A DNA stretch of 64,000 bases from an uncultured Acetatifactor sp. (GCA_947588705.1 CANPYT010000001.1:65096-129095); one strand, 5' to 3'. Counted from the first letter of the stretch, positions 2,861 through 48,430 are shown. Program-made: numbers and translations. Notes: generated from the letters alone by a model not told the origin.

Positions 2861-5002
2861 ATGGGAACAGAGTACACTTATGACAGTCAATGTCTTTATA
2901 GGGACGGAAAGCCTTGGTTTCCGGTGATGGGAGAAATGCATTTTACCAGGTACAGAAAAGAGCTGTGGGAGGAATCCCTGCGGAAAATGAAAGCGGGCGG
3001 CGTCAGCATTGTGTCCACTTATCTGATCTGGATCCACCATGAGGAGGAGCAGGGAAACTTTGATTTTACCGGCTGCAGGGATCTGAGGTCCTTTTTGGAG
3101 CTGTGTAAAAAGGTGGAACTGAAGGTGTTTCTGCGGCTGGGCCCCTGGGTTCACGGGGAAGTGCGAAACGGGGGATTTCCGGACTGGCTGGTGAAGCTGG
3201 AGCGGGAGGGGATTGCCGTCCGCAGCAACGACGAGACATATCTGGGTTATGTAAGGAGATTCTGGAGCCGGGTCTACGAGCAGGCAAAAGGGATGATGCA
3301 CGAAGACGGAGGCCCCGTTATCGGCGTACAGATCGAGAACGAATACGGCCATGTGGGCGGACTGCGGGGAGAGGAGGGAGAAGCTCATATGAGGACCCTG
3401 CAGGCATTGGCGGAGGAATTGGGCTTTCGGGTTCCTCTGTACACTGCCACAGGCTGGGGCGGGGCTGTGATCGGAGATGCGCTGCCGGTGATGGGAGGTT
3501 ACTGCGATGCACCCTGGGATCAAAGCGTAAAGGAGCTATCCGCCAGCACAAACTATATTATCAGCCATGAGCGCAACGACGCGCTGATCGCCTGCGACCA
3601 TCATGTGGAGGGCGCGGTGACCTTTGACGAGTCTAAATTCCCGTATCTCACGGCGGAACTGGGGGGAGGCATTCAGGTCACGGCCCACAGGAGACCTGTG
3701 GGAACGGGAAAGGATATCGGCGCCATGTCAACCGTAAAGCTGGCCAGCGGAGCCGCCCTCCTGGGTTATTACATGTATCACGGCGGCAGCAACCCCGAGG
3801 GAAAACTTTCCACCCTGCAGGAGAGCCGCGCCACAGGATATGCCAATGATCTGCCTGAGATCAACTATGATTTCAACGCTCCCATCAGGCAGTATGGCTC
3901 TATTTCGGACAGCTATAGGGAGGTCAGGCTGCTGGCACAGTTTTTGGAGGATTTTGGCGAGGATTTGGCGGCGTTGCCCGCCAGCATCGACCCGGATGGT
4001 GTGAAGCCGGAGGATATGCACACGCTTCGGAAATCCGTAAGGCATGATGGCCGGCACGGGTATGTGTTTTACAATAATTATGTGCGGAACCGGACTATGG
4101 ACGCCCATGAGGGGGTGGTCTTTACCGGCCCCTGCGAGGATGGGGATGTGGTGTTTCCCAAGACGGATATTCCCGGCGGCACATTCGGATTCTTTCCTTA
4201 CCATATGCGCCTTGGGGAAGCGGAACTGGTGTCTGCCCTTGCCACCCCGCTGTGCCGGATCCATGATAAGGACGGGGAGGTGTTTGTCTTTTACGGGGAT
4301 CAGGAGCCATGCTTTTCCTGGAAGGGAGGGAAGGCAGCACGAGTGCTGCATCTGACCCGACAGCAGGCATTGAACGCCTGCAAACTCATGCTGGACAGGG
4401 AATACCTGGTATTGGCGGATAACTTTGTCTGGGAAGAGGACGGAAAGCTGAAAGCCGTGGGAGGGGAAGAGACCAGGATTTTGTCCTATCCGGCATTTAC
4501 CGAAACGCCGGAAGGGTTTTCGCCTGCGGGTACGGAGGGCAGCTTCGCGGCATATGTGAGAAAACGCGGCGAAAGAGCCGCCGTAACCTTTCGGGAGTCT
4601 GGACGCGGCGTCAGGCCGGCGGGCGAAAAGGCGGATTCCTCCGTGCCGGGGGAGGCGCTTATGGAGAAAGAGAGAGCGTGGACGGAATACCGGGTGAAGA
4701 TTTCCTATCCTGAAAAGCTGCGGGGGCAGGACCGCATTGAGGGGCGCGATACCTGGCTGTGGATCAGCTACAGCGGATTCGGCATGGAGATCCTGGCCCA
4801 GGGACAAAAGCTGAACGATCATTTTTACACAGGACAGAAGGTGCCGGTGAGCCTCGGATATTTTGACTTTCCGGAGGAACTTGTGATCCGGGTGTACGCA
4901 CTGTATGAGGAGGATTGGGTCTATCTGGAAAAATGGCCCCCTCTGACGGACGGCAAGGTGTGCAGCCTGGACGGCCTGGACTTGACGGAAGAATATAGAT
5001 AG
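2861..5002 (+). CDS. GH35 beta-galactosidase
   Basis: GH35 motifs: VSTYLIWIHHEEEQGNFDF, LRLGPWVHGEVRNGGFPDWL and GVQIENEYG. ATG at 2861 follows GGAGG. The track start at 2795 is probably too long. Confidence 0.8.
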   Translation: MGTEYTYDSQCLYRDGKPWFPVMGEMHFTRYRKELWEESLRKMKAGGVSIVSTYLIWIHHEEEQGNFDFTGCRDLRSFLELCKKVELKVFLRLGPWVHGEVRNGGFPDWLVKLEREGIAVRSNDETYLGYVRRFWSRVYEQAKGMMHEDGGPVIGVQIENEYGHVGGLRGEEGEAHMRTLQALAEELGFRVPLYTATGWGGAVIGDALPVMGGYCDAPWDQSVKELSASTNYIISHERNDALIACDHHVEGAVTFDESKFPYLTAELGGGIQVTAHRRPVGTGKDIGAMSTVKLASGAALLGYYMYHGGSNPEGKLSTLQESRATGYANDLPEINYDFNAPIRQYGSISDSYREVRLLAQFLEDFGEDLAALPASIDPDGVKPEDMHTLRKSVRHDGRHGYVFYNNYVRNRTMDAHEGVVFTGPCEDGDVVFPKTDIPGGTFGFFPYHMRLGEAELVSALATPLCRIHDKDGEVFVFYGDQEPCFSWKGGKAARVLHLTRQQALNACKLMLDREYLVLADNFVWEEDGKLKAVGGEETRILSYPAFTETPEGFSPAGTEGSFAAYVRKRGERAAVTFRESGRGVRPAGEKADSSVPGEALMEKERAWTEYRVKISYPEKLRGQDRIEGRDTWLWISYSGFGMEILAQGQKLNDHFYTGQKVPVSLGYFDFPEELVIRVYALYEEDWVYLEKWPPLTDGKVCSLDGLDLTEEYR

Positions 5003-12333: not shown

Positions 12334-12432
12334 ATAACAGTTCAGCCCGCGCCATTCGCAAAGCCGCGCTGCCGCGCTTACCGGCGCTGTGCGCCTGCCT
12401 TTGCTCATCGAATGGCGTTCCTCAGCCGCTTT
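12334..12432 (-). repeat. Intergenic palindromic repeat family, full-length copy B
   Basis: The reverse complement reads GCGGCTGAGGAACGCCATTCGATGAGCAAAGGCAGGCGCACAGCGCCGGTAAGCGCGGCAGCGCGGCTTTGCGAATGGCGCGGGCTGAACTGTT. Confidence 0.85.
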
Positions 12433-13282: not shown

Positions 13283-13702
13283 TTACCTTCTCTCACAGAT
13301 TTTAATGGAGATCGTGTAATGAGAGAGAAGATTGCCGTTCTCCTCCAGGGAATAGTCTGCCGTCATCTCTAAAAATCCCGGGCCGCGCCTTGTGTCCACG
13401 GATCTTGTACAGATGTTGAGGCGAAGGGGGCCATAGGGAGTGAAGTAATCCGTCGCATGTTCTCTGCCCGGTTCAAAAACCATACAGGTGTTGACAGAGC
13501 CCTTTTTTGTCAGTTCGATCCGGTTCCCCCTTTGCTTTAAGATATTCCTGGTCGCAAGCCCGTCTTCCGTTTCCTGATAGAGAATATAACAGCTGCCGTT
13601 TCTCTCATAATATTCCGCTTCCGCGGTCAGCTCCGTCACGGTTTCGGCTCCGTCCGGGCCGAGCTGGCGCCCGGTCAGCGTAAGCAGTACCTGTCTGTCC
13701 AT
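13283..13702 (-). CDS. DUF1934 (YwiB-like) beta-barrel protein
   Basis: Size and pattern fit the family (LTLTGRQ...AEYYERNGSCYILYQE...IELTKKGSVNTCMVFEPG). Confidence 0.65.
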   Translation of the reverse strand: MDRQVLLTLTGRQLGPDGAETVTELTAEAEYYERNGSCYILYQETEDGLATRNILKQRGNRIELTKKGSVNTCMVFEPGREHATDYFTPYGPLRLNICTRSVDTRRGPGFLEMTADYSLEENGNLLSHYTISIKICERR

Positions 13703-20752: not shown

Positions 20753-20848
20753 GCGGCTGAGGGAGCGCCATCTTATGAGCAAAGATAGGCGCAAGGCGCC
20801 GGAGAGCGCGTAAGCACGGCTTTGTGAATGGCGCGGGCCGAACTGCTT
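20753..20848 (+). repeat. Intergenic palindromic repeat family, full-length copy C
   Basis: GCGGCTGAGGGAGCGCCATCTTATGAGCAAAGATAGGCGCAAGGCGCCGGAGAGCGCGTAAGCACGGCTTTGTGAATGGCGCGGGCCGAACTGCT. Confidence 0.85.
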
Positions 20849-22961: not shown

Positions 22962-22963
22962 GG

Positions 22964-23022
22964 GATTTTGGGAGAGTAAGGTACATACGGTTGTGATAAA
23001 ATAAAATAGAACGGTTGGAAAC
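22964..23022 (+). repeat. Junction repeat W, copy 1 (spoIIID-like stub plus AAAATAGAACGGTTGGAAA)
   Basis: ATTTTGGGAGAGTAAGGTACATACGGTTGTGATAAAATAAAATAGAACGGTTGGAAA resembles 27872-27930. Confidence 0.55.
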
Positions 23023-23109
23023 TGCGCAGGAGACTGGGAGAGAAATCCCACAACCCAAAGGCCGCCTGATGTATGCGTAATGTGAGCACCGTTATGATTG
23101 GAAAAAATT

Positions 23110-23185
23110 GAAATGGGATGCTAAATGAGAGATGATCTGTTATACTATAATGGCAGACAGGAGGTTCGTATGAGTACGCTTGAAG
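23110..23185 (+). repeat. Antitoxin leader and first codons, copy 1 (partner at 29105-29182)
   Basis: GAAATGGGATGCTAAATGAGAGATGATCTGTTATACTATAATGG...ATGAGTACGCTTGAAG compared with GAAAATGGGGTGCTAAATGAGAGATTATCTGTTATGCTATAATGG...ATGAGTACGCTTAAAG. Confidence 0.8.
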
Positions 23186-23400
23186 CAAATATGGCATTAT
23201 TATCAACAATTCCCGAAGAAAACCAGAAAGAGATCCAAAAATATCTTCTGGTTAATTTTTGCGAAAATAACCCGTACAGGCCCCTCGGCCGTGGCGAAAT
23301 CCTCGAAGAGCTTGCAGAATCAAGGAAGTGTTACGAGAACGGCGAAGGAGAATACCTTGATACGGTTATTGATGAAATCGAGATGAAGTATGGCTTATAA
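23170..23400 (+). CDS. Type II antitoxin (partner of RelE/ParE toxin)
   Basis: 76-aa acidic protein. Overlaps the toxin start by 11 nt. GGAGG SD. Confidence 0.65.
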   Translation: MSTLEANMALLSTIPEENQKEIQKYLLVNFCENNPYRPLGRGEILEELAESRKCYENGEGEYLDTVIDEIEMKYGL

Positions 23401-23722
23401 AGTAATTATCATGCCTCCGGCCAGAAGAAGGTTGGAGATGTATATATACTATACAATAGAAACACTGAAAAACAGACCAGCCGCCAAAGCAATTCTTGCG
23501 GATGCCAGAGATACTCGTAAGCGTTTATCTCTGACGGCTGATTCTTTGCGAGTTTGTGAGAATCCCTTATTGGCAAAGCATGGTTATCGAAAGATTTATT
23601 TTGCAAAACATAGATTCCTGATGATATATCGAATACAGGATAATACGGTTATTGTGGATGGTATGTTTCACGAATTACAGGATTATGAAGGGGTTTTTAT
23701 AAATGAACTCCATCTGCAGTAG
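23390..23722 (+). CDS. RelE/ParE-family type II toxin
   Basis: 110 aa. Pattern KVIIMPPARRRL...YRKIYFAKHRFLMIYRIQDNTVIVDGMFH is typical of the RelE/ParE fold. Confidence 0.7.
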   Translation: MAYKVIIMPPARRRLEMYIYYTIETLKNRPAAKAILADARDTRKRLSLTADSLRVCENPLLAKHGYRKIYFAKHRFLMIYRIQDNTVIVDGMFHELQDYEGVFINELHLQ

Positions 23723-23779
23723 AACGTTGAACTAATGATTTTCTTATGAAAATTAGAGAAGATTAAAAGTGGTGGCAAT

Positions 23780-24055
23780 ATGATTAGGGATATGATTGTA
23801 TATATCAAAGTGAATATTAAAGAAAATTACGACAAGAAGGATTTGAAAATGTTGGCAGAGAATATAAAAGAAGAGTTGATTCGGGGATTAACCGATATTG
23901 ATCTTTATGTGGAACCGATTGACCTCACTATGACATCAGGAAAGTTAGAAAAGGATAAAGCGTATAGAGAATTTCATTTTGGGAAGAGAAGGGGCTGCCG
24001 TGTGGCAGCCCCTTCTTTCTATGTGTCTTCTTTTGTGTCTTCTTTTTCAAAATAG
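23780..24055 (+). CDS. Doubtful small ORF containing a remnant of an MNT 5' end
   Basis: The ORF runs through a strong terminator hairpin. Internal MLAENIKEELIRGLTDI matches the N-terminus of the 28135 nucleotidyltransferase (MLSEEMREELVRGLTDI). Confidence 0.25.
   Translation: MIRDMIVYIKVNIKENYDKKDLKMLAENIKEELIRGLTDIDLYVEPIDLTMTSGKLEKDKAYREFHFGKRRGCRVAAPSFYVSSFVSSFSK
23987..24016. terminator. Hairpin terminator between convergent transcription units
   Basis: AGAAGGGGCTGCC gtgt GGCAGCCCCTTCT, with a T-rich tail on the + strand. Lies directly after the stop of the XRE gene on the - strand. Confidence 0.65.
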
Positions 24056-25430: not shown

Positions 25431-26102
25431 ATGAACATAATACCAAGAATTTTCAATAATATAGCCGGTACCTATGAAAATCCGATTATCGATGCGACAA
25501 CGACCGTCTCCGTATTGACGGTGGTGCTCCTTTTAGCGCTGTACGAATTTTTGATATACCGGATCGTGTCTCACCGATCCTTTTTCAATAAGTCTTTCAA
25601 CATCTGCATAGCGATCCTTCCGTTTTTTATCGCCACGATCATTCTTTGCCTGCAATCGAATGTTGTTATCACACTGGGCACGATTGGGGCGCTTGCCATC
25701 ATCCGATTCCGCACTGCCGTGAAAGATCCGGTGGACATGCTGTATATCCTGTGGTCGGTCTATATCGGAATCGTGTGCGGCTGCCAGCTCTATGAAGTGG
25801 CGGTTCTCACATCCCTTGTGGTCACAGTGTTTTTGATCCTTTTAAACAGGGTATCCCTCGGAAAAGCGCCGTTTCTGCTGGTACTGCACTGCAGGCCGGA
25901 GCAGGAGGATGAGGTCTTTCAGGAGATAAAGGCCCAATGTAGGAAATACCGTGTGAAAAGCAGAAATTATACGTCTCGGGGAATGGATTATGTCATAGAA
26001 TTTTCCGTGAAGGCGCCGGAAAAATTAGCGCAGGGGCTCAGGGAAAAAGAAGTGGAACGCTTTTCCATCATAAGCTATGACGGCGAGGATGTGATCGGAT
26101 GA
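25431..26102 (+). CDS. DUF4956-like multi-pass membrane protein
   Basis: 4-5 predicted TM helices followed by a charged soluble tail. The stop overlaps the next start (ATGA). Confidence 0.6.
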   Translation: MNIIPRIFNNIAGTYENPIIDATTTVSVLTVVLLLALYEFLIYRIVSHRSFFNKSFNICIAILPFFIATIILCLQSNVVITLGTIGALAIIRFRTAVKDPVDMLYILWSVYIGIVCGCQLYEVAVLTSLVVTVFLILLNRVSLGKAPFLLVLHCRPEQEDEVFQEIKAQCRKYRVKSRNYTSRGMDYVIEFSVKAPEKLAQGLREKEVERFSIISYDGEDVIG

Positions 26103-27745
26103 TGAATGCGAAAAAAAGATTGCGTATCCTTCTCCTGGCCGTCTCCGCGGGAGCCCTTTTCTGGCTGCTGTCCTTTCGGGGGTCTGCCGTGCAGTTCTCT
26201 GAACTGGCCGTTACGGCGGCGCAGTTTGATCAGCTCCGGTCGCAGTATGCGGATACGGAAAAGAACCTGATCAATGGGATCTGGTTTGGAGAGGAGGAAC
26301 TGTTTTTTGATCCTGTATCCGACACTTATTATTATTCCCTGCCGGAAGGAGATCCCGACGCTTTTGATCCGCAGGTAAGGATAAGGTCTCAATATCGTAA
26401 TGTGTCGATCGCTGTACTGGAGGGAAACATGACCAGGGATAGTATCGCGCAGGATGCGGTGACGGAGATGATAGCGTATGACGGGAGCGTCAGCAGAATC
26501 TATCATTTGAAATGCACAACGCTGCCTTTGCTGAACATTTCAACGGAAAATTCGGAGGAGATTTCAGAAAGTGCCGTGCCAATGGAACTGACGCTCTTTG
26601 ACAACCGCAGAGGTGCGCCAAACAGGGTTACCTGTTCCGACGGATATATCCATGTCAGGGGAGGTACGACGAAAGTCTTTCCAAAACTTGGCTATCGGAT
26701 TTCACTGACACAGGTGTCGCTTGGGGAGAATAAACGCCCCAACGATATTTCGCTGTTAGGGATGAGGAAGGACGATGACTGGATCTTATATGCCGGGTAT
26801 AACGATCAGGAAAAAATACGTAATGTCTTTTCTTCAAATCTGTGGCAGTATTCCTGTGCCGTGGATAACAAAAAGAAAGTCAATACGGGCATGGAGTACA
26901 GGTATCTGGAACTTTTTGTGAATAACCGATACTGGGGGCTGTATGCGATAGGATATCCGATAGATGAAAAACAGCTTAATTTTGATGCGGACAGTTATGA
27001 TACCGCACTCTTCAAGAAAGTGTCCTGGGCCCTCGAAAGTGATTTTGTGCCAGGCAGCGCGGTGATGCAGGGATATCGGCTGGCATCGGCAGCCGACCCG
27101 CAAAAGGAGGAGCTGATTACAAGAAAGTGGGATTTATTGATCGATTATTATGAAAATCTTACAGCCAACGTATATGACAATGAGATGCTGTATAAGGGAA
27201 TCGATATTGACAATGCTGTCGATGCCTATCTTTTCTTTAATTTGATCCAGGGGTCGGATAATGTTGACAATGCCAGGATAAAAAATGTATATCTTGCAGT
27301 GGAGCGGAGCGCGGATCGGATCATGGCCCTGTACTGCCCGTGGGATATGGACATGTCATGGGGCAACTACTGGTCCCATGGAGGGAAAAATCTGACAGTG
27401 CCGTATGGATGGAGCGCTGCGGAAAACTGTTACCTTGGGAGCGGTTATTTTGGGCAGCTGTGTTCCAATCAGGATCCCGAAATCTGGAACTATGTCTATG
27501 AAAAATATGAAGAACTGCGGAGGACCGCATGGTCGGATGAAAATATTGCAAAACTTTTGGACGAATATGAAGAAGATATTTTTTCTTCCGGGGCCTATTT
27601 GCGGGACAGTGAAAGATGGCCGGAAGGCACTTACGCCGACAACGCCCAGGGGCTGGACGTGTTCAGGAAATATGTGGCGGACAGATTAGCGGTGATGGAT
27701 TCCTATTACAAGAAATCTGTTCCCGCAACGCATATCTCCCCCTGA
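26099..27745 (+). CDS. CotH-family atypical kinase, N-terminally anchored or exported
   Basis: Leader KKRLRILLLAVSAGALFWLLSF. CotH-like blocks YLELFVNNRYWGLYAIGYP and ALYCPWDMDMSWG. Confidence 0.7.
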   Translation: MMNAKKRLRILLLAVSAGALFWLLSFRGSAVQFSELAVTAAQFDQLRSQYADTEKNLINGIWFGEEELFFDPVSDTYYYSLPEGDPDAFDPQVRIRSQYRNVSIAVLEGNMTRDSIAQDAVTEMIAYDGSVSRIYHLKCTTLPLLNISTENSEEISESAVPMELTLFDNRRGAPNRVTCSDGYIHVRGGTTKVFPKLGYRISLTQVSLGENKRPNDISLLGMRKDDDWILYAGYNDQEKIRNVFSSNLWQYSCAVDNKKKVNTGMEYRYLELFVNNRYWGLYAIGYPIDEKQLNFDADSYDTALFKKVSWALESDFVPGSAVMQGYRLASAADPQKEELITRKWDLLIDYYENLTANVYDNEMLYKGIDIDNAVDAYLFFNLIQGSDNVDNARIKNVYLAVERSADRIMALYCPWDMDMSWGNYWSHGGKNLTVPYGWSAAENCYLGSGYFGQLCSNQDPEIWNYVYEKYEELRRTAWSDENIAKLLDEYEEDIFSSGAYLRDSERWPEGTYADNAQGLDVFRKYVADRLAVMDSYYKKSVPATHISP

Positions 27746-27900
27746 CCCCTCATAAGATGTAAAAAACATTCTTAAGGGCATCCCTATGAAAGAATATATT
27801 GAGGAGCGGGCTATCAGTATTGCCAATTATATCATTGACAGTAATGCCACGGTTCGTCAGACGGCGAAAAATTTTGGAGTGAGTAAGAGTACGGTACATA
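27588..27900 (+). repeat. 313-bp direct repeat, copy 1 (cotH 3' end, 40-nt spacer, spoIIID codons 1-38)
   Basis: Aligns base-for-base with 29191-29503 at an offset of 1603. I see only 2 mismatches (27608 a/t; 27881 g/a). Confidence 0.9.
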
Positions 27901-27917
27901 TGGTCGTAACAAAATAG
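27786..27917 (+). pseudogene. spoIIID: Truncated spoIIID copy (38 native codons plus MVVTK and a stop)
   Basis: Matches the 5' end of the intact gene at 29389 (1 mismatch, 27881 g/a) up to ...GVSKSTVH, then diverges at 27901. Confidence 0.85.
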
Positions 27918-27930
27918 AACGGTTCGGAAA
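27872..27930 (+). repeat. Junction repeat W, copy 2 (end of truncated spoIIID plus AAAATAGAACGGTTCGGAAA)
   Basis: ATTTTGGAGTGAGTAAGAGTACGGTACATATGGTCGTAACAAAATAGAACGGTTCGGAAA. Confidence 0.55.
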
Positions 27931-27997
27931 GGGCGTATGGGTGGTAAGGTAAATATTGCAGATTGCAGGTGAAAGCGATTGCATCAGATGTGTAAGG

Positions 27998-28042
27998 GCA
28001 TCGGGAAAACGAAAGGGTTTCCCGGTGCTCTTTTTTGTTTTT
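27998..28042 (+). terminator. Rho-independent terminator
   Basis: GCATCGGGAAAAC gaaa GGGTTTCCCGGTGC followed by TCTTTTTTGTTTTT. Confidence 0.75.
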
Positions 28043-28046
28043 GATA

Positions 28047-28075
28047 TTGTGAAGCGGAAGGATTGAGGGTATAAT
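28047..28075 (+). promoter_or_regulatory. Sigma-A-type promoter of the MNT-HEPN cassette
   Basis: TTGTGA, 17 nt, TATAAT. Confidence 0.5.
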
Positions 28076-28134
28076 TTAATTAGTAATATATAGATTAATT
28101 CATGAAAAGAGACGGCTTCAGGAGGTATTCTGTA

Positions 28135-28464
28135 ATGTTATCCGAGGAAATGAGAGAAGAATTGGTGCGTGGATTGACAGATATCTTTCAAAATAATATT
28201 TCCATGATCATTTTATATGGTTCGGCGGCAAGGAATGAAGCAACGATCGAGAGCGATGTTGATGTTGCGATCATTGTGAAAGATTCGATGGACAATGACA
28301 CAAAAAGCCGCTTCGTTAGATGGGTTGCCAATATGGATCTACGTTATGAAAGAGTATTTTCCATTGTGGATATACAAGAAAGCAATCTGATGAAATGGGA
28401 AAAGGTACTGCCATTTTATCAGAATATTCGTAAGGAGGGAATCGTCCTGTGGAAGGCAGCTTAA
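28135..28464 (+). CDS. Nucleotidyltransferase-domain protein (MNT-type TA component)
   Basis: ILYGSAARNEAT..SDVDVAIIV minimal NTase motif. AGGAGG SD. Confidence 0.8.
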   Translation: MLSEEMREELVRGLTDIFQNNISMIILYGSAARNEATIESDVDVAIIVKDSMDNDTKSRFVRWVANMDLRYERVFSIVDIQESNLMKWEKVLPFYQNIRKEGIVLWKAA

Positions 28465-28841
28465 AAGAGTTATCAGAATATCGCATGGCAAGAGCGAAAG
28501 AAATGCTGATGGCCGCTGAAAGTAATTTGGAGATAGGACAATATAAAACATCTCTGAACAGGTCATATTATGCAGTTTTTCATGCGATGCGTGCAGTTAA
28601 TGCTTTGAAAAAGTATGATTCTTCCAAACATTCAGGTGTGATAGCTTTTTTTACAAAAGAATATTTGAAGACAGAGATTTTGGATAGAGGTTTGGCGGCT
28701 ATCATTAAAGAGAGTTCTCTGTGCAGGGAAAAATCGGACTATGATGATTTTTATGTAGCGGGAAAAGGAGAGGCAGAGGAGCAGCTTAAAAATGCAAAAT
28801 ATTTTGTGCAGAAGATTGAGGAATATATTATGAGTATTTGA
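28449..28841 (+). CDS. HEPN-domain protein (TA partner of MNT)
   Basis: 16-nt overlap with the MNT gene. Helical HEPN pattern (AKEMLMAAESNL, SLNRSYYAVFHAMRA, REKSDYDD). Confidence 0.75.
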   Translation: MEGSLKELSEYRMARAKEMLMAAESNLEIGQYKTSLNRSYYAVFHAMRAVNALKKYDSSKHSGVIAFFTKEYLKTEILDRGLAAIIKESSLCREKSDYDDFYVAGKGEAEEQLKNAKYFVQKIEEYIMSI

Positions 28842-28862
28842 ATGATTGAGGGTGCAGGTTGA

Positions 28863-29057
28863 ATGAGAATTGCAATAAAACGTAAAGGCGCATTTTGGGC
28901 GGTGTGGGGATCGACGATGAATGATTATATAGAATATCAGCGGTCTGTGGCGTTAGAATTTCAGGCATATAAAAATAGAGTCCGCAATATGGTTGGCAGC
29001 TGCCACTGGGGTGAAGATGGACGATACAAAGAATTAGAGATACGAATAGAGATATGA
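28863..29057 (+). CDS. Short ORF, probably a truncated gene fragment
   Basis: ORF only (64 aa). Ends abruptly before the duplicated antitoxin leader. Confidence 0.25.
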   Translation: MRIAIKRKGAFWAVWGSTMNDYIEYQRSVALEFQAYKNRVRNMVGSCHWGEDGRYKELEIRIEI

Positions 29058-29104
29058 AAGACTAAAAGGGATATTGATGCTGTTAAAAGGATAATATAAA
29101 GGAT

Positions 29105-29182
29105 GAAAATGGGGTGCTAAATGAGAGATTATCTGTTATGCTATAATGGTAGACGGGAAGGTGCGCATGAGTACGCTTAAAG
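29105..29182 (+). repeat. Antitoxin leader and first four codons, orphan copy 2, fused to the cotH 3' fragment
   Basis: See the partner at 23110. Here the ATG-AGT-ACG-CTT is followed directly by the 313-bp repeat. Confidence 0.8.
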
Positions 29183-29190
29183 TGTTTTTC

Positions 29191-29503
29191 CCGGGGCCTA
29201 TTTGCGGGACTGTGAAAGATGGCCGGAAGGCACTTACGCCGACAACGCCCAGGGGCTGGACGTGTTCAGGAAATATGTGGCGGACAGATTAGCGGTGATG
29301 GATTCCTATTACAAGAAATCTGTTCCCGCAACGCATATCTCCCCCTGACCCCTCATAAGATGTAAAAAACATTCTTAAGGGCATCCCTATGAAAGAATAT
29401 ATTGAGGAGCGGGCTATCAGTATTGCCAATTATATCATTGACAGTAATGCCACGGTTCGTCAGACGGCGAAAAATTTTGGAGTAAGTAAGAGTACGGTAC
29501 ATA
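29191..29503 (+). repeat. 313-bp direct repeat, copy 2 (orphan cotH 3' fragment plus the start of intact spoIIID)
   Basis: See copy 1. The cotH-derived part (29191-29348) has no upstream reading frame. Confidence 0.9.
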
Positions 29504-29652
29504 AGGATGTAACCGACCGGCTCATGCAGATCAATCCCGCTCTGGCAAAACAGGCCCGGCAGGTGCTGGATGTAAACAAATCGGAACGCCATATTCGAGG
29601 GGGCATGGCGACAAAAGAAAAATATCTGCACAGGCAGCACCCGGAAGAGTGA
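29389..29652 (+). CDS. spoIIID: Stage III sporulation protein D (mother-cell transcription factor)
   Basis: 87 aa. MKEYIEERAISIANYIIDSNATVRQTAKNFGVSKSTVHKDVTDRL... is the canonical SpoIIID HTH. Confidence 0.9.
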   Translation: MKEYIEERAISIANYIIDSNATVRQTAKNFGVSKSTVHKDVTDRLMQINPALAKQARQVLDVNKSERHIRGGMATKEKYLHRQHPEE

Positions 29653-45075: not shown

Positions 45076-45246
45076 GGCTGAGCAGCGTTCGGCCCGCGCC
45101 ATTCCCGAAGCCGCGCTGCCGAGCTCTCCGGCGCTGTGCGCCTGCCTTTGCTCATTAAATGGGTAGCAATTCAGCCCGCGCCATTCCCGAAGCCGCGCTT
45201 ACGCGCTTTTCGTTGCTCATAAAATGGCGCTCCCTCGGTTGCGGCC
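45076..45246 (-). repeat. Intergenic palindromic repeat family, tandem dimer E1/E2
   Basis: Two head-to-tail copies, each containing (T/G)CAGCCCGCGCCATTCCCGAAGCCGCGCT...TTGCTCAT(T/A)AAATGG. Confidence 0.85.
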
Positions 45247-46763: not shown

Positions 46764-46864
46764 CTCTTATTCAGAGCTGGCGGAGATACATAGGATCGAT
46801 GAAGCCACGGCAACCCCTGTTGAGGAAGGTGCCCACCTGAGCGAGTAAAATCGAGCAATAAGAG
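46764..46864 (+). promoter_or_regulatory. SAM-I (S-box) riboswitch aptamer
   Basis: P1 stem CTCTTAT / ATAAGAG. Conserved blocks TTCAGAGCTGGCGGAGATAC, GATGAAGCCACGGCAACC and AAGGTGCCCACCTGAGCG. Lies directly upstream of metK. Confidence 0.85.
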
Positions 46865-48205: not shown

Positions 48206-48367
48206 TAGGTTCCCAAAAACTGAATCAGAACATCATGGAGCTGCCGCCTGGGCGAAATGCGTGAGGCGGCGGCTCTTTTTGCTGTTTCCCGTCGGCGCAG
48301 GATCCGGCCGGAGGTTTTTCTAAATTTACAAACCGGCCGTTTTTCAGTATAATAGGTGTATCGGTTC

Positions 48368-48430
48368 AGGCGCACAGCGCCGGAGGGCACGGCAGCGCGG
48401 CTTTGCGGATGGCGCGGGCTGAACTGTTGC
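48368..48430 (+). repeat. Intergenic palindromic repeat family, 5'-truncated copy F
   Basis: AGGCGCACAGCGCCGGAGGGCACGGCAGCGCGGCTTTGCGGATGGCGCGGGCTGAACTGTTGC. Confidence 0.85.

What the first reader, a model, noticed from the sequence alone, without database searches (positions are those of the whole stretch)
27588..29503. 313-bp near-perfect direct repeat brackets a 1.29-kb TA cassette and creates a truncated spoIIID next to the intact gene
**Seen in sequence.**
- 27588-27900 and 29191-29503 are identical except for two positions, at a constant offset of 1603.
- Each copy holds the last ~158 nt of cotH, the 40-nt spacer and spoIIID codons 1-38.
- Copy 1 diverges at 27901, in the middle of the HTH-coding region, giving a 43-codon stub (…STVH-MVVTK-stop).
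- Copy 2 continues into a full 87-codon spoIIID.
- Between the copies lies a self-contained unit:
  - strong terminator (27998-28042)
  - promoter
  - MNT-HEPN pair
  - a 64-codon fragment
  - an orphan copy of the RelB-like antitoxin leader with its first four codons (29105-29182), fused directly to the orphan cotH fragment

**Inference.**
- The near identity suggests a recent event. It could be Campbell-type insertion of a circular DNA through the 313-bp homology, or a tandem duplication followed by internal deletion.
- The repeats are long enough for RecA-mediated excision. That could switch the locus back and forth.
- SpoIIID is the key mother-cell regulator. A stub encoding only helix 1-2 of its HTH, driven by the same upstream sequence, could be expressed at the same time as the real gene.
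Basis: partly seen in the sequence, partly recalled or inferred. Interest (0 to 1): 0.7.

Follow-up and report, generated by a model that had tools for sequence, protein, structure and literature searches.

The report
Fossil of a spoIIID-splitting mobile element
The 313-bp repeat is real, but the truncated spoIIID is the left junction (attL) of a mobile element that splits this sporulation gene in many gut Lachnospiraceae; here the element has lost its recombinase and the gene was rebuilt by duplicating its front end.

Summary
**Observation confirmed.** 27588-27900 and 29191-29503 differ at 2 of 313 positions. The structure recurs in independent assemblies and in at least 6 metagenome runs.

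**Interpretation partly right.** The break at 27900/27901 is not random.
- The stub tail (CAT|ATGGTYGTAACAAAATAGAACGG, …STVH-MVVTK*) is nucleotide-conserved behind spoIIID codon 38 in 19 species-level genomes.
- It also lies in about 43 metagenome contigs and all 120 listed stub-sized proteins.
- In five species spoIIID is truly split by a 4.9-8.5-kb element.
- That element encodes a large serine recombinase (512-553 aa).
- Joining the halves at a TACATA core gives an in-frame SpoIIID that passes TIGR02844.
- A sister species (L109) holds the complete element with the window's MNT block (92% nt).

**The window keeps only a remnant.**
- It has attL, a terminator and the MNT-HEPN cargo.
- It has no recombinase and no attR.
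- A blunt joint of a broken relB-like gene to a broken cotH precedes a second promoter plus 5' copy, so spoIIID is whole again with an empty attB.

**Most likely route.** Tandem duplication, then site-specific excision from the distal copy.

**Age and novelty.**
- The event predates strain divergence.
- The regenerated state recurs in about 12 other lineages.
- An older relic lies at 22962-23021.
- The element kind is known (skin-like); spoIIID as a target has one prior passing mention.

The parts
26099..27745 (+). Intact cotH. Its last 158 nt lie inside repeat copy 1.
   Evidence: Pfam CotH, 7e-29.
27588..27900 (+). Repeat copy 1: cotH 3' end, 40-nt spacer with a putative sigma-E-type promoter and RBS, and spoIIID codons 1-38.
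   Evidence: It extends to about 27582 in other strains.
27786..27917 (+). 43-codon spoIIID stub (…STVH-MVVTK*). It consists of the host 5' half fused to the element's P' arm.
   Evidence: Matches SpoIIID positions 1-41 only. The same tail occurs in all 120 listed homologues.
27895..27922 (+). attL: core TACATA (27895-27900) plus the P' arm ATGGTCGTAACAAAATAGAACGG (27900-27922).
   Evidence: Conserved at nucleotide level in 60 independent attL sites: 1.7 bits per position for 24 nt (+0 to +23) with no codon periodicity, then 0.5 bits. It is the reverse-complement partner of the P arm seen at attR sites.
27994..28043 (+). Intrinsic terminator just inside the element.
   Evidence: Fold of -24 kcal/mol, z = -5.9, followed by a U-tract. 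Conserved in L016 and L109.
28047..28075 (+). Sigma-70-like promoter of the cargo operon (TTGTGA-17-TATAAT).
   Evidence: This is a consensus match only.
28135..28464 (+). MNT-type nucleotidyltransferase, the putative antitoxin. An upstream start at 28102 is also possible.
   Evidence: Pfam Polbeta/NTP_transf_2. MntA model 39.8 bits, below the cutoff of 60. PADLOC PDC-S09, 5e-23. 96% aa identity to the MNT in the complete element of L109.
28449..28841 (+). HEPN-domain protein, the putative toxin. It overlaps the MNT gene by 16 nt.
   Evidence: Pfam HEPN PF05168, 3e-18.
28863..29057 (+). 64-codon ORF with no family match, probably a gene remnant.
   Evidence: No Pfam, NCBIfam or PADLOC hit. Other strains carry frameshifting indels here: +5 nt after 28868 and -1 nt at 29023.
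29107..29184 (+). Orphan promoter and leader plus the first 5 codons of a RelB-like antitoxin gene. It ends in a blunt illegitimate joint to the cotH fragment.
   Evidence: 88% identical to 23111-23185. The joint reads AAAG(C/T)G|TTTCTTCC in L001.
29191..29503 (+). Repeat copy 2: orphan cotH 3' fragment, spacer with promoter, and spoIIID codons 1-38.
29389..29652 (+). Intact spoIIID (87 aa).
   Evidence: TIGR02844, 133 bits against a cutoff of 111.5.
29498..29525 (+). Unoccupied attB inside spoIIID: core TACATA plus the B' arm AAGGATGTAACCGACCGGCTC.
   Evidence: Matches the B' side of attR in L017, L023, L028, L034 and L109.
22962..23021 (+). Older, degenerate attL relic: about 25 nt of spoIIID-like sequence plus a P' arm with a 5-nt insertion. 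It lies directly after the stop codon of the GGDEF-EAL gene.
23016..23080 (+). 3' end of a HicB-like antitoxin gene, a cargo remnant fused to the relic.
   Evidence: Aligns with the C-terminus of the HicB-like ORF inside the element of L011.
23170..23722 (+). RelB-like antitoxin (23170-23400) and ParE-family toxin (23390-23722). The leader of this pair is the one duplicated at 29107.
   Evidence: ParE_toxin, 4.6e-4. The antitoxin is 93% identical to one inside the element of L011.

Best explanation
**What it is.** The locus is the immobilised remnant of a skin-like intervening element that targets spoIIID.

**The complete element, as seen in related Lachnospiraceae.**
- It is 4.9-8.5 kb long.
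- It sits at a TACATA core in spoIIID codons 37-39, inside the recognition helix of the HTH.
- The host 5' half then reads into the element's P' arm. That produces the conserved stub …STVH-MVVTK*.
- A large serine recombinase is encoded in the element, and the 3' half of spoIIID follows attR.
- By analogy with skin/SpoIVCA and SPbeta/SprA-SprB, the recombinase would join attL and attR in the mother cell. That would release a circle and rebuild spoIIID, while the spore keeps the element. This step is inferred, not shown.

**The state of the window.**
- It retains attL, the terminator and the MNT-HEPN cargo operon.
- The recombinase and attR are gone.
- A second copy of the cotH 3' end, promoter and spoIIID codons 1-38 precedes the 3' half. 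spoIIID is therefore intact, carries an empty attB, and needs no rearrangement.

**Most likely route (inferred).**
1. An illegitimate sister-strand exchange joined a relB-like cargo gene to cotH. This made a 1.6-kb tandem duplication that included attL.
2. The recombinase then excised the complete distal element precisely. The proximal attL and its cargo were left stranded.

**Present consequences (inferred).**
- The stub is probably transcribed together with spoIIID, and transcription stops at the terminator.
- The stub peptide lacks the rest of the recognition helix and the C-terminal region, so it is probably inert.
- The TA cargo is now a fixed chromosomal gene pair.
- The empty attB can accept a new element.
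For: **The junction is a conserved attL.**
- It is found behind spoIIID codon 38 in 19 of 19 genome hits, with synonymous variation upstream.
- It is found in about 43 metagenome contigs.
- The stub search returned 691 proteins; the best 120 are listed and all are stub-sized (43-76 aa) with the tail. One cluster is indexed in 347 blocks of the assembly collection.
- Conservation runs about 23 nt past the core with no codon periodicity, then collapses.

**The gene is truly split in relatives.**
- L017, L023, L028, L034 and L109 have only the 3' half downstream.
- Each holds a recombinase with Resolvase, Recombinase and Zn_ribbon_recom domains. The recombinases of L023, L028 and L109 are 73-76% identical to that of L017.
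- The attR P arms are the reverse-complement partners of the stub tail.
- Joined ORFs are in frame, and the four scanned (L017, L023, L028, L034) score 131-136 bits against TIGR02844; the L109 join is in frame (87 aa) but was not scanned.

**A sister species shows the earlier state.**
- L109 has the complete 5,574-bp element.
- Its terminator-promoter-MNT block is 92% identical to the window's, and MatE lies downstream as in the window.

**The window is a remnant.**
- There is no serine recombinase anywhere in the 64 kb.
- A broken relB-like gene is joined to a broken cotH.
- The attB is intact.
- The insert is low in GC.

**The event is old and fixed.** Junctions are identical in all strains. 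Six variable sites among the four repeat copies are all singletons.
Against: - No excision product (attP) or empty joint was found for any member of the family. Activity during sporulation rests on analogy alone.
- The route is not uniquely determined. Two other routes give the same end product: Campbell insertion of a looped-out circle, and homology-facilitated illegitimate recombination with an empty-site allele.
- In four other species the duplicated segment starts exactly at the promoter -35 (58-70 nt upstream of the ATG). In three lineages the two copies differ mostly at synonymous sites. This hints that some elements carry their own promoter plus 5' module, which the duplication model does not predict.
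- A recombinase of this family could lie elsewhere in the genome, outside the window.
Confidence: 0.8

Rival explanations
1. A 1.6-kb circle carrying the TA cassette recently inserted by RecA-dependent Campbell recombination through the 313-bp homology. The locus still flips between filled and empty states.
For: - The end product is formally identical to a tandem duplication.
- The repeats are 99.4% identical and long enough for RecA.
- Position 27881/29484 is G or A in either copy in different strains, which hints at exchange between the copies.
Against: - The stub junction is an ancient, conserved attL, so the circle could not have created it.
- The same junctions occur in every sampled strain, and divergence between copies equals divergence between strains.
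- No empty form was seen, although unitigs cannot reveal one.
- This model needs an extra illegitimate excision and a transfer step.
Confidence: 0.1
2. A gene-restoring cassette. Some elements of this family carry their own promoter plus spoIIID codons 1-38 at the right end. Insertion displaces the host 5' half, which becomes the stub, and never inactivates the gene. Such cassettes lack a recombinase and would be moved in trans or by homology.
For: - In L031, L040, L089 and L046 the repeat begins 58-70 nt upstream of the ATG, at the sigma-E-like -35 and directly after the last cargo gene.
- In L040, L089 and L046 the stub and the full copy differ at 13:2, 14:2 and 6:2 synonymous to non-synonymous codons. 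That is the pattern expected if one copy came from another lineage.
- The regenerated state is about as common as the split state.
Against: - In the window the right end is a broken relB-like gene fused to a broken host cotH. That is the signature of an accident, not a designed end.
- Both window copies are 99% identical to host sequence.
- From general knowledge of serine integrases, they are not known to recombine an attL-type site with attB.
- Deletion bias plus selection for a working promoter could also trim repeats to the -35 boundary.
Confidence: 0.12
3. The stub is a selected micro-protein, an N-terminal SpoIIID fragment made at the same time as SpoIIID. The duplication is maintained for that function.
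For: - The stub ORF, promoter and RBS are intact in the window and in several regenerated loci.
- Differences between stub and full copy are mostly synonymous in L040 and L089.
Against: - Stubs decay elsewhere. L037 reads RQMA and SRNTVH, L054 reads ATGKQ, and L094 is frameshifted. L054 and L083 have lost the promoter. L066 and window 22962 are reduced to about 30 nt.
- Tail conservation shows no codon periodicity, and the tail peptide varies (MVVTK, TVVTK, MVVTI and others).
- The stub lacks half of the recognition helix and all of the C-terminal region.
Confidence: 0.04
4. Assembly artefact: a collapsed or chimeric join of two strain haplotypes.
For: The source is a low-coverage metagenomic organism, and repeats longer than the k-mer size are error-prone.
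Against: - Independent assemblies from at least 8 samples, made with different assemblers, give the same order and junctions.
- Unitigs cross each junction in 6 runs from at least 3 studies.
Confidence: 0.01

Closest known systems
skin element in sigK (B. subtilis SpoIVCA; C. difficile skinCd CD1231/CD1234)
   Same: - An element splits a mother-cell sporulation regulator gene.
- It encodes a large serine recombinase with Resolvase, Recombinase and Zn-ribbon domains; in L017 and L028 it sits at the element's edge, next to the 3' gene half.
- Cargo is variable.
- Joining at the core restores the ORF (PMC5025042; bioRxiv 10.1101/2022.02.25.481979).
   Different: - The target is spoIIID. In B. subtilis this gene acts upstream of sigK and of spoIVCA itself.
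- The elements are small (4.9-8.5 kb) and carry defence or TA cargo, not phage genes.
- The window copy has no recombinase and no attR, and the gene is not interrupted.
Skin-like element interrupting spoIIID of Ruminiclostridium cellulolyticum (Galperin et al. 2022, one sentence plus Table S3)
   Same: The same target gene and the same general kind of element.
   Different: - It is only mentioned there. No att sites, distribution or decay products are described.
- I could not compare sequences, so membership in the same recombinase/att lineage is untested.
SPbeta in spsM (SprA/SprB); vfbin in spoVFB; vrin in spoVR; gin in gerE; yin in yabG
   Same: Site-specific elements in sporulation genes that are excised to reconstitute the gene. 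gin shows that such elements need not be prophages (PMC4191935, PMC5595907, PMC10747680).
   Different: - The targets and recombinases differ.
- None of these papers reports a recurrent state of stub plus regenerated gene.
XisF / fdxN element of Anabaena, and CcrB/CcrC of SCCmec
   Same: These are the nearest curated recombinase models: 161, 127 and 126 bits. XisF performs developmental excision in a terminal cell. Ccr elements accrete in tandem at one chromosomal site.
   Different: Scores are far below the family cutoffs (900, 900, 375). The recombinase is therefore a relative, not a member.
CIMEs: decayed integrative elements that keep att sites but lack an integrase (streptococcal ICESt family). 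This comparison rests on my own knowledge.
   Same: A recombinase-less remnant with cargo sits beside a still usable attachment site. This allows accretion and possibly mobilisation in trans.
   Different: - CIMEs keep both attL and attR and use tyrosine recombinases.
- Here only attL survives, beside a regenerated attB.

Membership tests
Sporulation-gene intervening element (skin type) | It interrupts a mother-cell sporulation gene, so neither fragment encodes the whole protein. | tested here: not met
   The window has an intact 87-aa spoIIID. The feature is met in relatives L017, L023, L028, L034 and L109.
Sporulation-gene intervening element (skin type) | It encodes its own site-specific (large serine) recombinase. 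| tested here: not met
   No hit in the 64-kb window (tblastn, best E = 0.2). The feature is met in relatives, with recombinases of 512-553 aa and the right Pfam architecture.
Sporulation-gene intervening element (skin type) | It is bounded by attL and attR that share a core, and joining them restores the ORF in frame. | tested here: inconclusive
   The window has an intact attL but no attR; attB stands in its place. In five relatives both sites are present and joining gives an in-frame SpoIIID; the four scanned pass TIGR02844 and the L109 join was not scanned.
Sporulation-gene intervening element (skin type) | It is excised during sporulation, producing attB and a circle with attP. | not testable with these tools
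   No attP in the viral or metagenome collections, and no joints in contig-level runs. No raw reads or cultures are available.
Sporulation-gene intervening element (skin type) | A recombination directionality factor is present. | not tested
   Small ORFs lie next to the recombinase: 74 aa in L023, 59 and 119 aa in L028, 43 aa in L109. None was analysed.
SpoIIID (TIGR02844) | A full-length match above the equivalog cutoff. | tested here: met
   29389-29652 scores 133 bits against a cutoff of 111.5. The stub scores 59 bits and fails.
Type VII MntA/HepT toxin-antitoxin | An MntA-family nucleotidyltransferase above the curated cutoff, paired with a HepT (PF01934) toxin. | tested here: not met
   MntA model 39.8 bits against a cutoff of 60. 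The partner matches HEPN PF05168, not HepT. The gene pair overlaps as TA pairs do, and the MNT matches PADLOC candidate PDC-S09. It therefore looks like an MNT-HEPN module but is not a shown member of MntA/HepT.
SCCmec Ccr / XisF recombinases | A score above the equivalog cutoff. | tested here: not met
   161, 127 and 126 bits against cutoffs of 900, 900 and 375.

The most novel reading that the evidence does not exclude
The spoIIID attB of gut Lachnospiraceae may work as a capture-and-fossilise platform.

- Small serine-recombinase elements deliver TA, restriction-modification, SIR2, OLD-like or tetracycline-resistance-like cargo.
- The host repeatedly escapes dependence on excision by regenerating spoIIID from a duplicated or imported promoter plus 5' module.
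- The orphan attL with its cargo stays behind, next to a fresh attB that can accept the next element.
- Arrays build up in this way. The window has two attL relics, and L047 and L063 have tandem stubs.
- Orphan attL cargo could be re-mobilised together with a newcomer's attR.
- In the many species that still have the split gene, sporulation would need a DNA rearrangement one step earlier in the mother-cell cascade than the classic sigK case.
Probability: 0.3. Interest if true: 0.8.

Novelty: new variant of a known kind. Interest (0 to 1): 0.6.

Why it matters
- **A duplication explained.** An odd-looking repeat is the remnant of a specific element. This exposes a large and, as far as the searched literature shows, uncharacterised family of elements that split spoIIID, the key early mother-cell regulator, across gut Lachnospiraceae. 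One stub cluster alone is indexed in 347 blocks of the assembly collection.
- **Sporulation biology.** If excision is developmental, many gut commensals gate sporulation by a DNA rearrangement upstream of sigma-K.
- **Genome annotation.** Split or stub-bearing loci can be scored as "spoIIID missing" or "spoIIID truncated". That would distort genome-based predictions of sporulation ability.
- **Evolution of mobile elements.** The locus shows a repeatable route by which mobile cargo (TA, defence and possibly resistance genes) becomes fixed in the chromosome.
- **Tools.** The family offers a set of natural large serine recombinases with a well-defined att site of about 50 bp.

Tried and rejected
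1. **attL motif in viral contigs:** 0 hits. There is no sign that the element is phage-borne.
2. **attP junction (P arm + core + P' arm):** 0 hits in viral and metagenome contigs. A looser core-plus-P' scan found about 43 attL sites and no attP. About 16 further hits were unrelated chance contexts.
3. **Joined (empty or excised) form:** I laid chicken-gut runs on the split locus L017 and found no joints. Unitigs simply break at the att sites. Contig-level data cannot show rare or repeat-spanning forms.
4. **Low-share rabbit and other gut runs (X10-X16), searched for an empty-site strain:** too fragmentary.
6. **RNA evidence for stub expression:** only host-animal libraries were offered.
7. **Sigma-E-type promoter upstream of four recombinase genes:** a regex search found nothing. 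The test is too crude to count as negative evidence.
8. **Microhomology TTCC(C)G at the relB::cotH joint, suggested:** rejected after seeing L001. The apparent match comes from later substitutions in the window strain, and the original joint is essentially blunt.
9. **Diversity-generating retroelement, intron or IS explanations:** considered and dropped. There is no reverse transcriptase, the mismatches are not adenine-specific, an intact gene copy is present, and a recombinase with att sites explains the junction.

Full report
**1.
- 27588-27900 and 29191-29503 are direct repeats at a constant offset of 1603. They have two mismatches: 27608 A/T and 27881 G/A.
- Each copy holds 158 nt of the cotH 3' end, the 40-nt spacer and spoIIID codons 1-38.
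- Copy 1 runs on into a 43-codon ORF (…STVHMVVTK*). It matches only the first half of the SpoIIID models.
- Copy 2 runs on into an 87-aa SpoIIID that passes the curated equivalog cutoff (133 against 111.5 bits).
- Between the copies lie five features:
  - a strong terminator (-24 kcal/mol, z = -5.9);
  - a sigma-70-like promoter;
  - an overlapping MNT/HEPN pair;
  - a 64-codon ORF with no family match;
  - an 88% copy of the leader and first five codons of the RelB-like gene at 23170.
- The insert is 38% GC in a 47% GC neighbourhood.

**2. It is not an artefact, and it is not new to this genome.**
- ENA assemblies from other samples (L001, L002, L103-L108) show the same order and junctions.
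- Unitigs from six rabbit or other gut runs cross both junctions.
- I compared the two copies in the window with the two in strain L001, which is 98.7% identical overall. There are six variable sites, all singletons.
- Divergence between copies is 2/313 and 4/313. Divergence between strains is 3/313 for each copy.
- The duplication therefore predates the split of the sampled strains.
- In L001, X5 and X6 the right-hand joint reads AAAGCG|TTTCTTCCGGGG. The unit originally began near 27582, and the joint between the relB-like gene and cotH is essentially blunt.

**3. The stub end is a conserved recombination site.**
- Depth rose 4- to 10-fold over 27884-27924 in the metagenomes. Other contigs shared those 41 nt but had different flanks.
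- A scan of one genome per species for GTACATAYGGTYGTRAYAAAATA gave 19 loci, mostly Lachnospiraceae.
  - Where the upstream sequence is held (17 of 19 loci), it encodes the complete first 38 codons of spoIIID with synonymous variation. The other two are cut by the locus end.
  - The tail CAT|ATGGTTGTAACAAAATAGAACGG is nearly invariant at the nucleotide level.
- A protein search with the stub returned 691 hits. The 120 listed are all 43-76 aa and end in STVH plus MVVTK or a close variant.
- A metagenome scan added about 43 more attL sites.
- Across 60 distinct sites:
  - information content stays near 1.7 bits for 24 nt (+0 to +23) past the core with no codon periodicity, then falls to 0.5 bits;
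  - the coding part upstream shows ordinary third-position wobble.
- Part of the tail was fixed by my search patterns. Positions +17 to +22 and the loci found through proteins are free of that bias.

**4. The complete element.**
- In L017, L023, L028, L034 and L109, only the 3' half of spoIIID (from about residue 35) lies downstream, 4.9-8.5 kb from the stub.
- Each insert encodes a 512-553-aa protein with Resolvase, Recombinase and Zn_ribbon_recom domains. The recombinases of L023, L028 and L109 are 73-76% identical to that of L017. In L017 and L028 the gene ends next to the 3' half.
- The sequence left of attR (…CGTTCTAAnTAAnGAYAACCAT-ACAT) is the imperfect reverse complement of the stub tail.
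  - attP is therefore a palindrome-like site of about 50 bp around a TACATA core.
  - That layout is typical of large serine integrases.
- Joining the halves at the core gives in-frame proteins of 83-87 aa; the four scanned (L017, L023, L028, L034) score 131-136 bits against TIGR02844, and the L109 join was not scanned.
- The nearest curated recombinase models are CcrB, CcrC and XisF, all far below their cutoffs.
- Cargo differs between species and even between strains:
  - AAA-ATPase/PDDEXK proteins;
  - AAA_15-RloB;
  - type I restriction-modification;
  - SIR2;
  - BrnT/A, Phd-ParE, HicB and MNT-HEPN/HepT toxin-antitoxin pairs;
  - a Tet(M)/EF-G-like GTPase.
- That the element is excised during sporulation is an inference from the skin, SPbeta, gin and yin precedents. 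I found no attP and no joined form.

**5. A sister species shows what the window lost.**
- L109 (GCA_947586055.1) shares the host backbone at 75-84% nucleotide identity. MatE and further genes follow spoIIID in the same order.
- It carries a complete 5,574-bp element.
- The element's terminator-promoter-MNT block is 92% identical to window 27962-28504, and the MNT protein is 96% identical.
- The cargo is closer than the backbone, so it has moved between lineages.

**6. What the window is.**
- It has an intact attL (one common variant base in the P' arm), the terminator and the MNT-HEPN operon.
- No serine recombinase lies anywhere in the 64 kb, and there is no attR.
- In their place, a relB-like gene cut after codon 5 is joined bluntly to cotH cut 158 nt before its stop. 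The promoter and codons 1-38 follow, continuous with the 3' half.
- spoIIID is thus whole and contains an unoccupied attB.
- The simplest history has two steps:
  1. An illegitimate exchange joins relB to cotH. This duplicates the 1.6-kb segment that contains attL.
  2. The recombinase precisely excises the full distal element.
- That history yields exactly this structure and removes the recombinase.
- Two other routes give the same product and cannot be excluded:
  - Campbell insertion of a looped-out circle;
  - one-sided homologous capture of an empty-site allele.

**7. The regenerated state recurs.**
- A stub, cargo and a full spoIIID, with no family-type serine recombinase detected (tblastn; looked for within the sequence held), also occur in L031, L037, L040/L070, L022, L004, L046, L054, L066/L093, L083/L087, L089, L094 and L097.
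- The repeat's left edge varies. It is 206 nt upstream of the ATG in the window, but 58, 58, 59 and 70 nt in four species, right at a sigma-E-like -35.
- Some stubs are decaying:
  - changes at invariant residues in L037 and L054;
  - a frameshift in L094;
  - loss of the promoter in L054 and L083;
  - a 33-nt relic in L066.
- Others (L040, L089, L046) differ from the full copy almost only at synonymous sites. That suggests one copy was imported.
- This leaves room for a rival in which some elements carry their own promoter plus 5' module.

**8. A second, older relic.**
- 22962-23021 lies directly after the GGDEF-EAL gene. It holds about 25 nt of spoIIID-like sequence plus a degenerate P' arm with a 5-nt insertion.
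- It is fused to the last 20 codons of a HicB-like gene. The intact RelB-like/ParE pair follows.
- In L011 the same HicB and RelB genes sit inside a TA-array element.
- In relatives, the NlpC/P60 gene lies 3-5 kb upstream of the stub. In the window it lies 2.8 kb upstream of this relic.
- The locus has therefore been through more than one round of insertion and decay.

**9. Literature.**
- Known interrupted sporulation genes are sigK, spsM, spoVFB, spoVR, gerE and yabG (PMC4191935, PMC5595907, PMC10747680, PMC5025042).
- The only mention of spoIIID that I found is one sentence in Galperin et al. [quoted passage not shown]
- I found no description of the att site, the spread in Lachnospiraceae or the regenerated remnants.

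**10. Verdict.**
It is wrong on the origin, the age and the nature of the break.
- The feature is a fixed fossil of a known kind of element in a barely documented target, and it recurs.
- Shown:
  - the conserved attL;
  - split genes with a recombinase in relatives;
  - in-frame reconstitution;
  - absence of the recombinase and attR here;
  - fixation across strains.
- Inferred:
  - developmental excision;
  - the two-step route;
  - the inertness of the stub.

Noticed in passing
window 22962-24055: A second, degenerate attL relic with a 5-nt insertion in the P' arm. It is fused to a hicB-like 3' fragment. An intact RelB-like/ParE pair follows, then a 91-aa ORF whose N-terminus resembles the MNT (EELIRGLTDI). 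By synteny with relatives, this is roughly where the stub normally sits relative to NlpC/P60.
   Followed up: partly
window 12335-12421, 45087-45162 (+); 20759-20847, 48367-48430 (-); L109 13790-14166 (three tandem copies) and others: A dispersed GC-rich intergenic repeat of about 85-90 nt with internal palindromes (…GCGCCATTCGCAAAGCCGCGCTGCCGCGC…AATGGCGC…). It is shared with a related species and matches no Rfam family. It looks like a REP or MITE element.
   Followed up: partly
window 46764-46864 (+): A SAM riboswitch (RF00162), 65 bits against a gathering score of 44.
   Followed up: no
L069 about 400-440: spoIIID carries only a 28-nt footprint: the P' arm plus a repeated GTACAT. This introduces a stop codon and a frameshift. 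It looks like a deletion between the ACGGT in the tail and the ACGGT in the gene, which would leave an inactivated spoIIID.
   Followed up: partly
L047 (two stubs 938 nt apart, 94% identical); L063 (two stubs 4.2 kb apart): Tandem stubs, each with its own tail (and, in L047, its own promoter). This is consistent with repeated rounds of insertion and regeneration at the same site.
   Followed up: no
L037 10113-10185 and 12510-12582: The 73-nt tail region is duplicated (94.5%) on both sides of a Tet(M)/EF-G-like GTPase gene that lies between the stub and a full spoIIID.
   Followed up: no
L040/L070, L089, L046: The stub and the full-length 5' copy are only 84-95% identical, yet they differ almost only at synonymous sites. 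The repeat starts exactly at the promoter -35. This suggests import of a promoter plus 5' module from another lineage.
   Followed up: partly
L017 about 4190-4215 and L028 about 13290-13310 (just upstream of the recombinase start codons): A motif resembling the B' arm (ATGTAACAGAACGAAT in L017, GATGTAACCGAATGAT in L028) lies in front of the recombinase gene. It could be a binding site for autoregulation.
   Followed up: no
L109 8206-9126; L113 6654-7574: A 306-aa tyrosine recombinase gene on the opposite strand sits inside the serine-recombinase element of two related species. This looks like an element nested within an element.
   Followed up: no
window 28868 and 29023: The 64-codon ORF carries frameshifting indels in other strains: +ATTAG in X1 and X5, and -1 nt in X1 and X4. 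This fits a pseudogene remnant.
   Followed up: partly
L036 compared with L034; L113-L115; X30 and X32 compared with L017: Strains that share an identical stub or recombinase module carry different cargo (methyltransferase, TetR-ABC and IS66 against AAA_15-RloB; SIR2 present, absent or inverted). The cargo is mosaic and turns over quickly.
   Followed up: no
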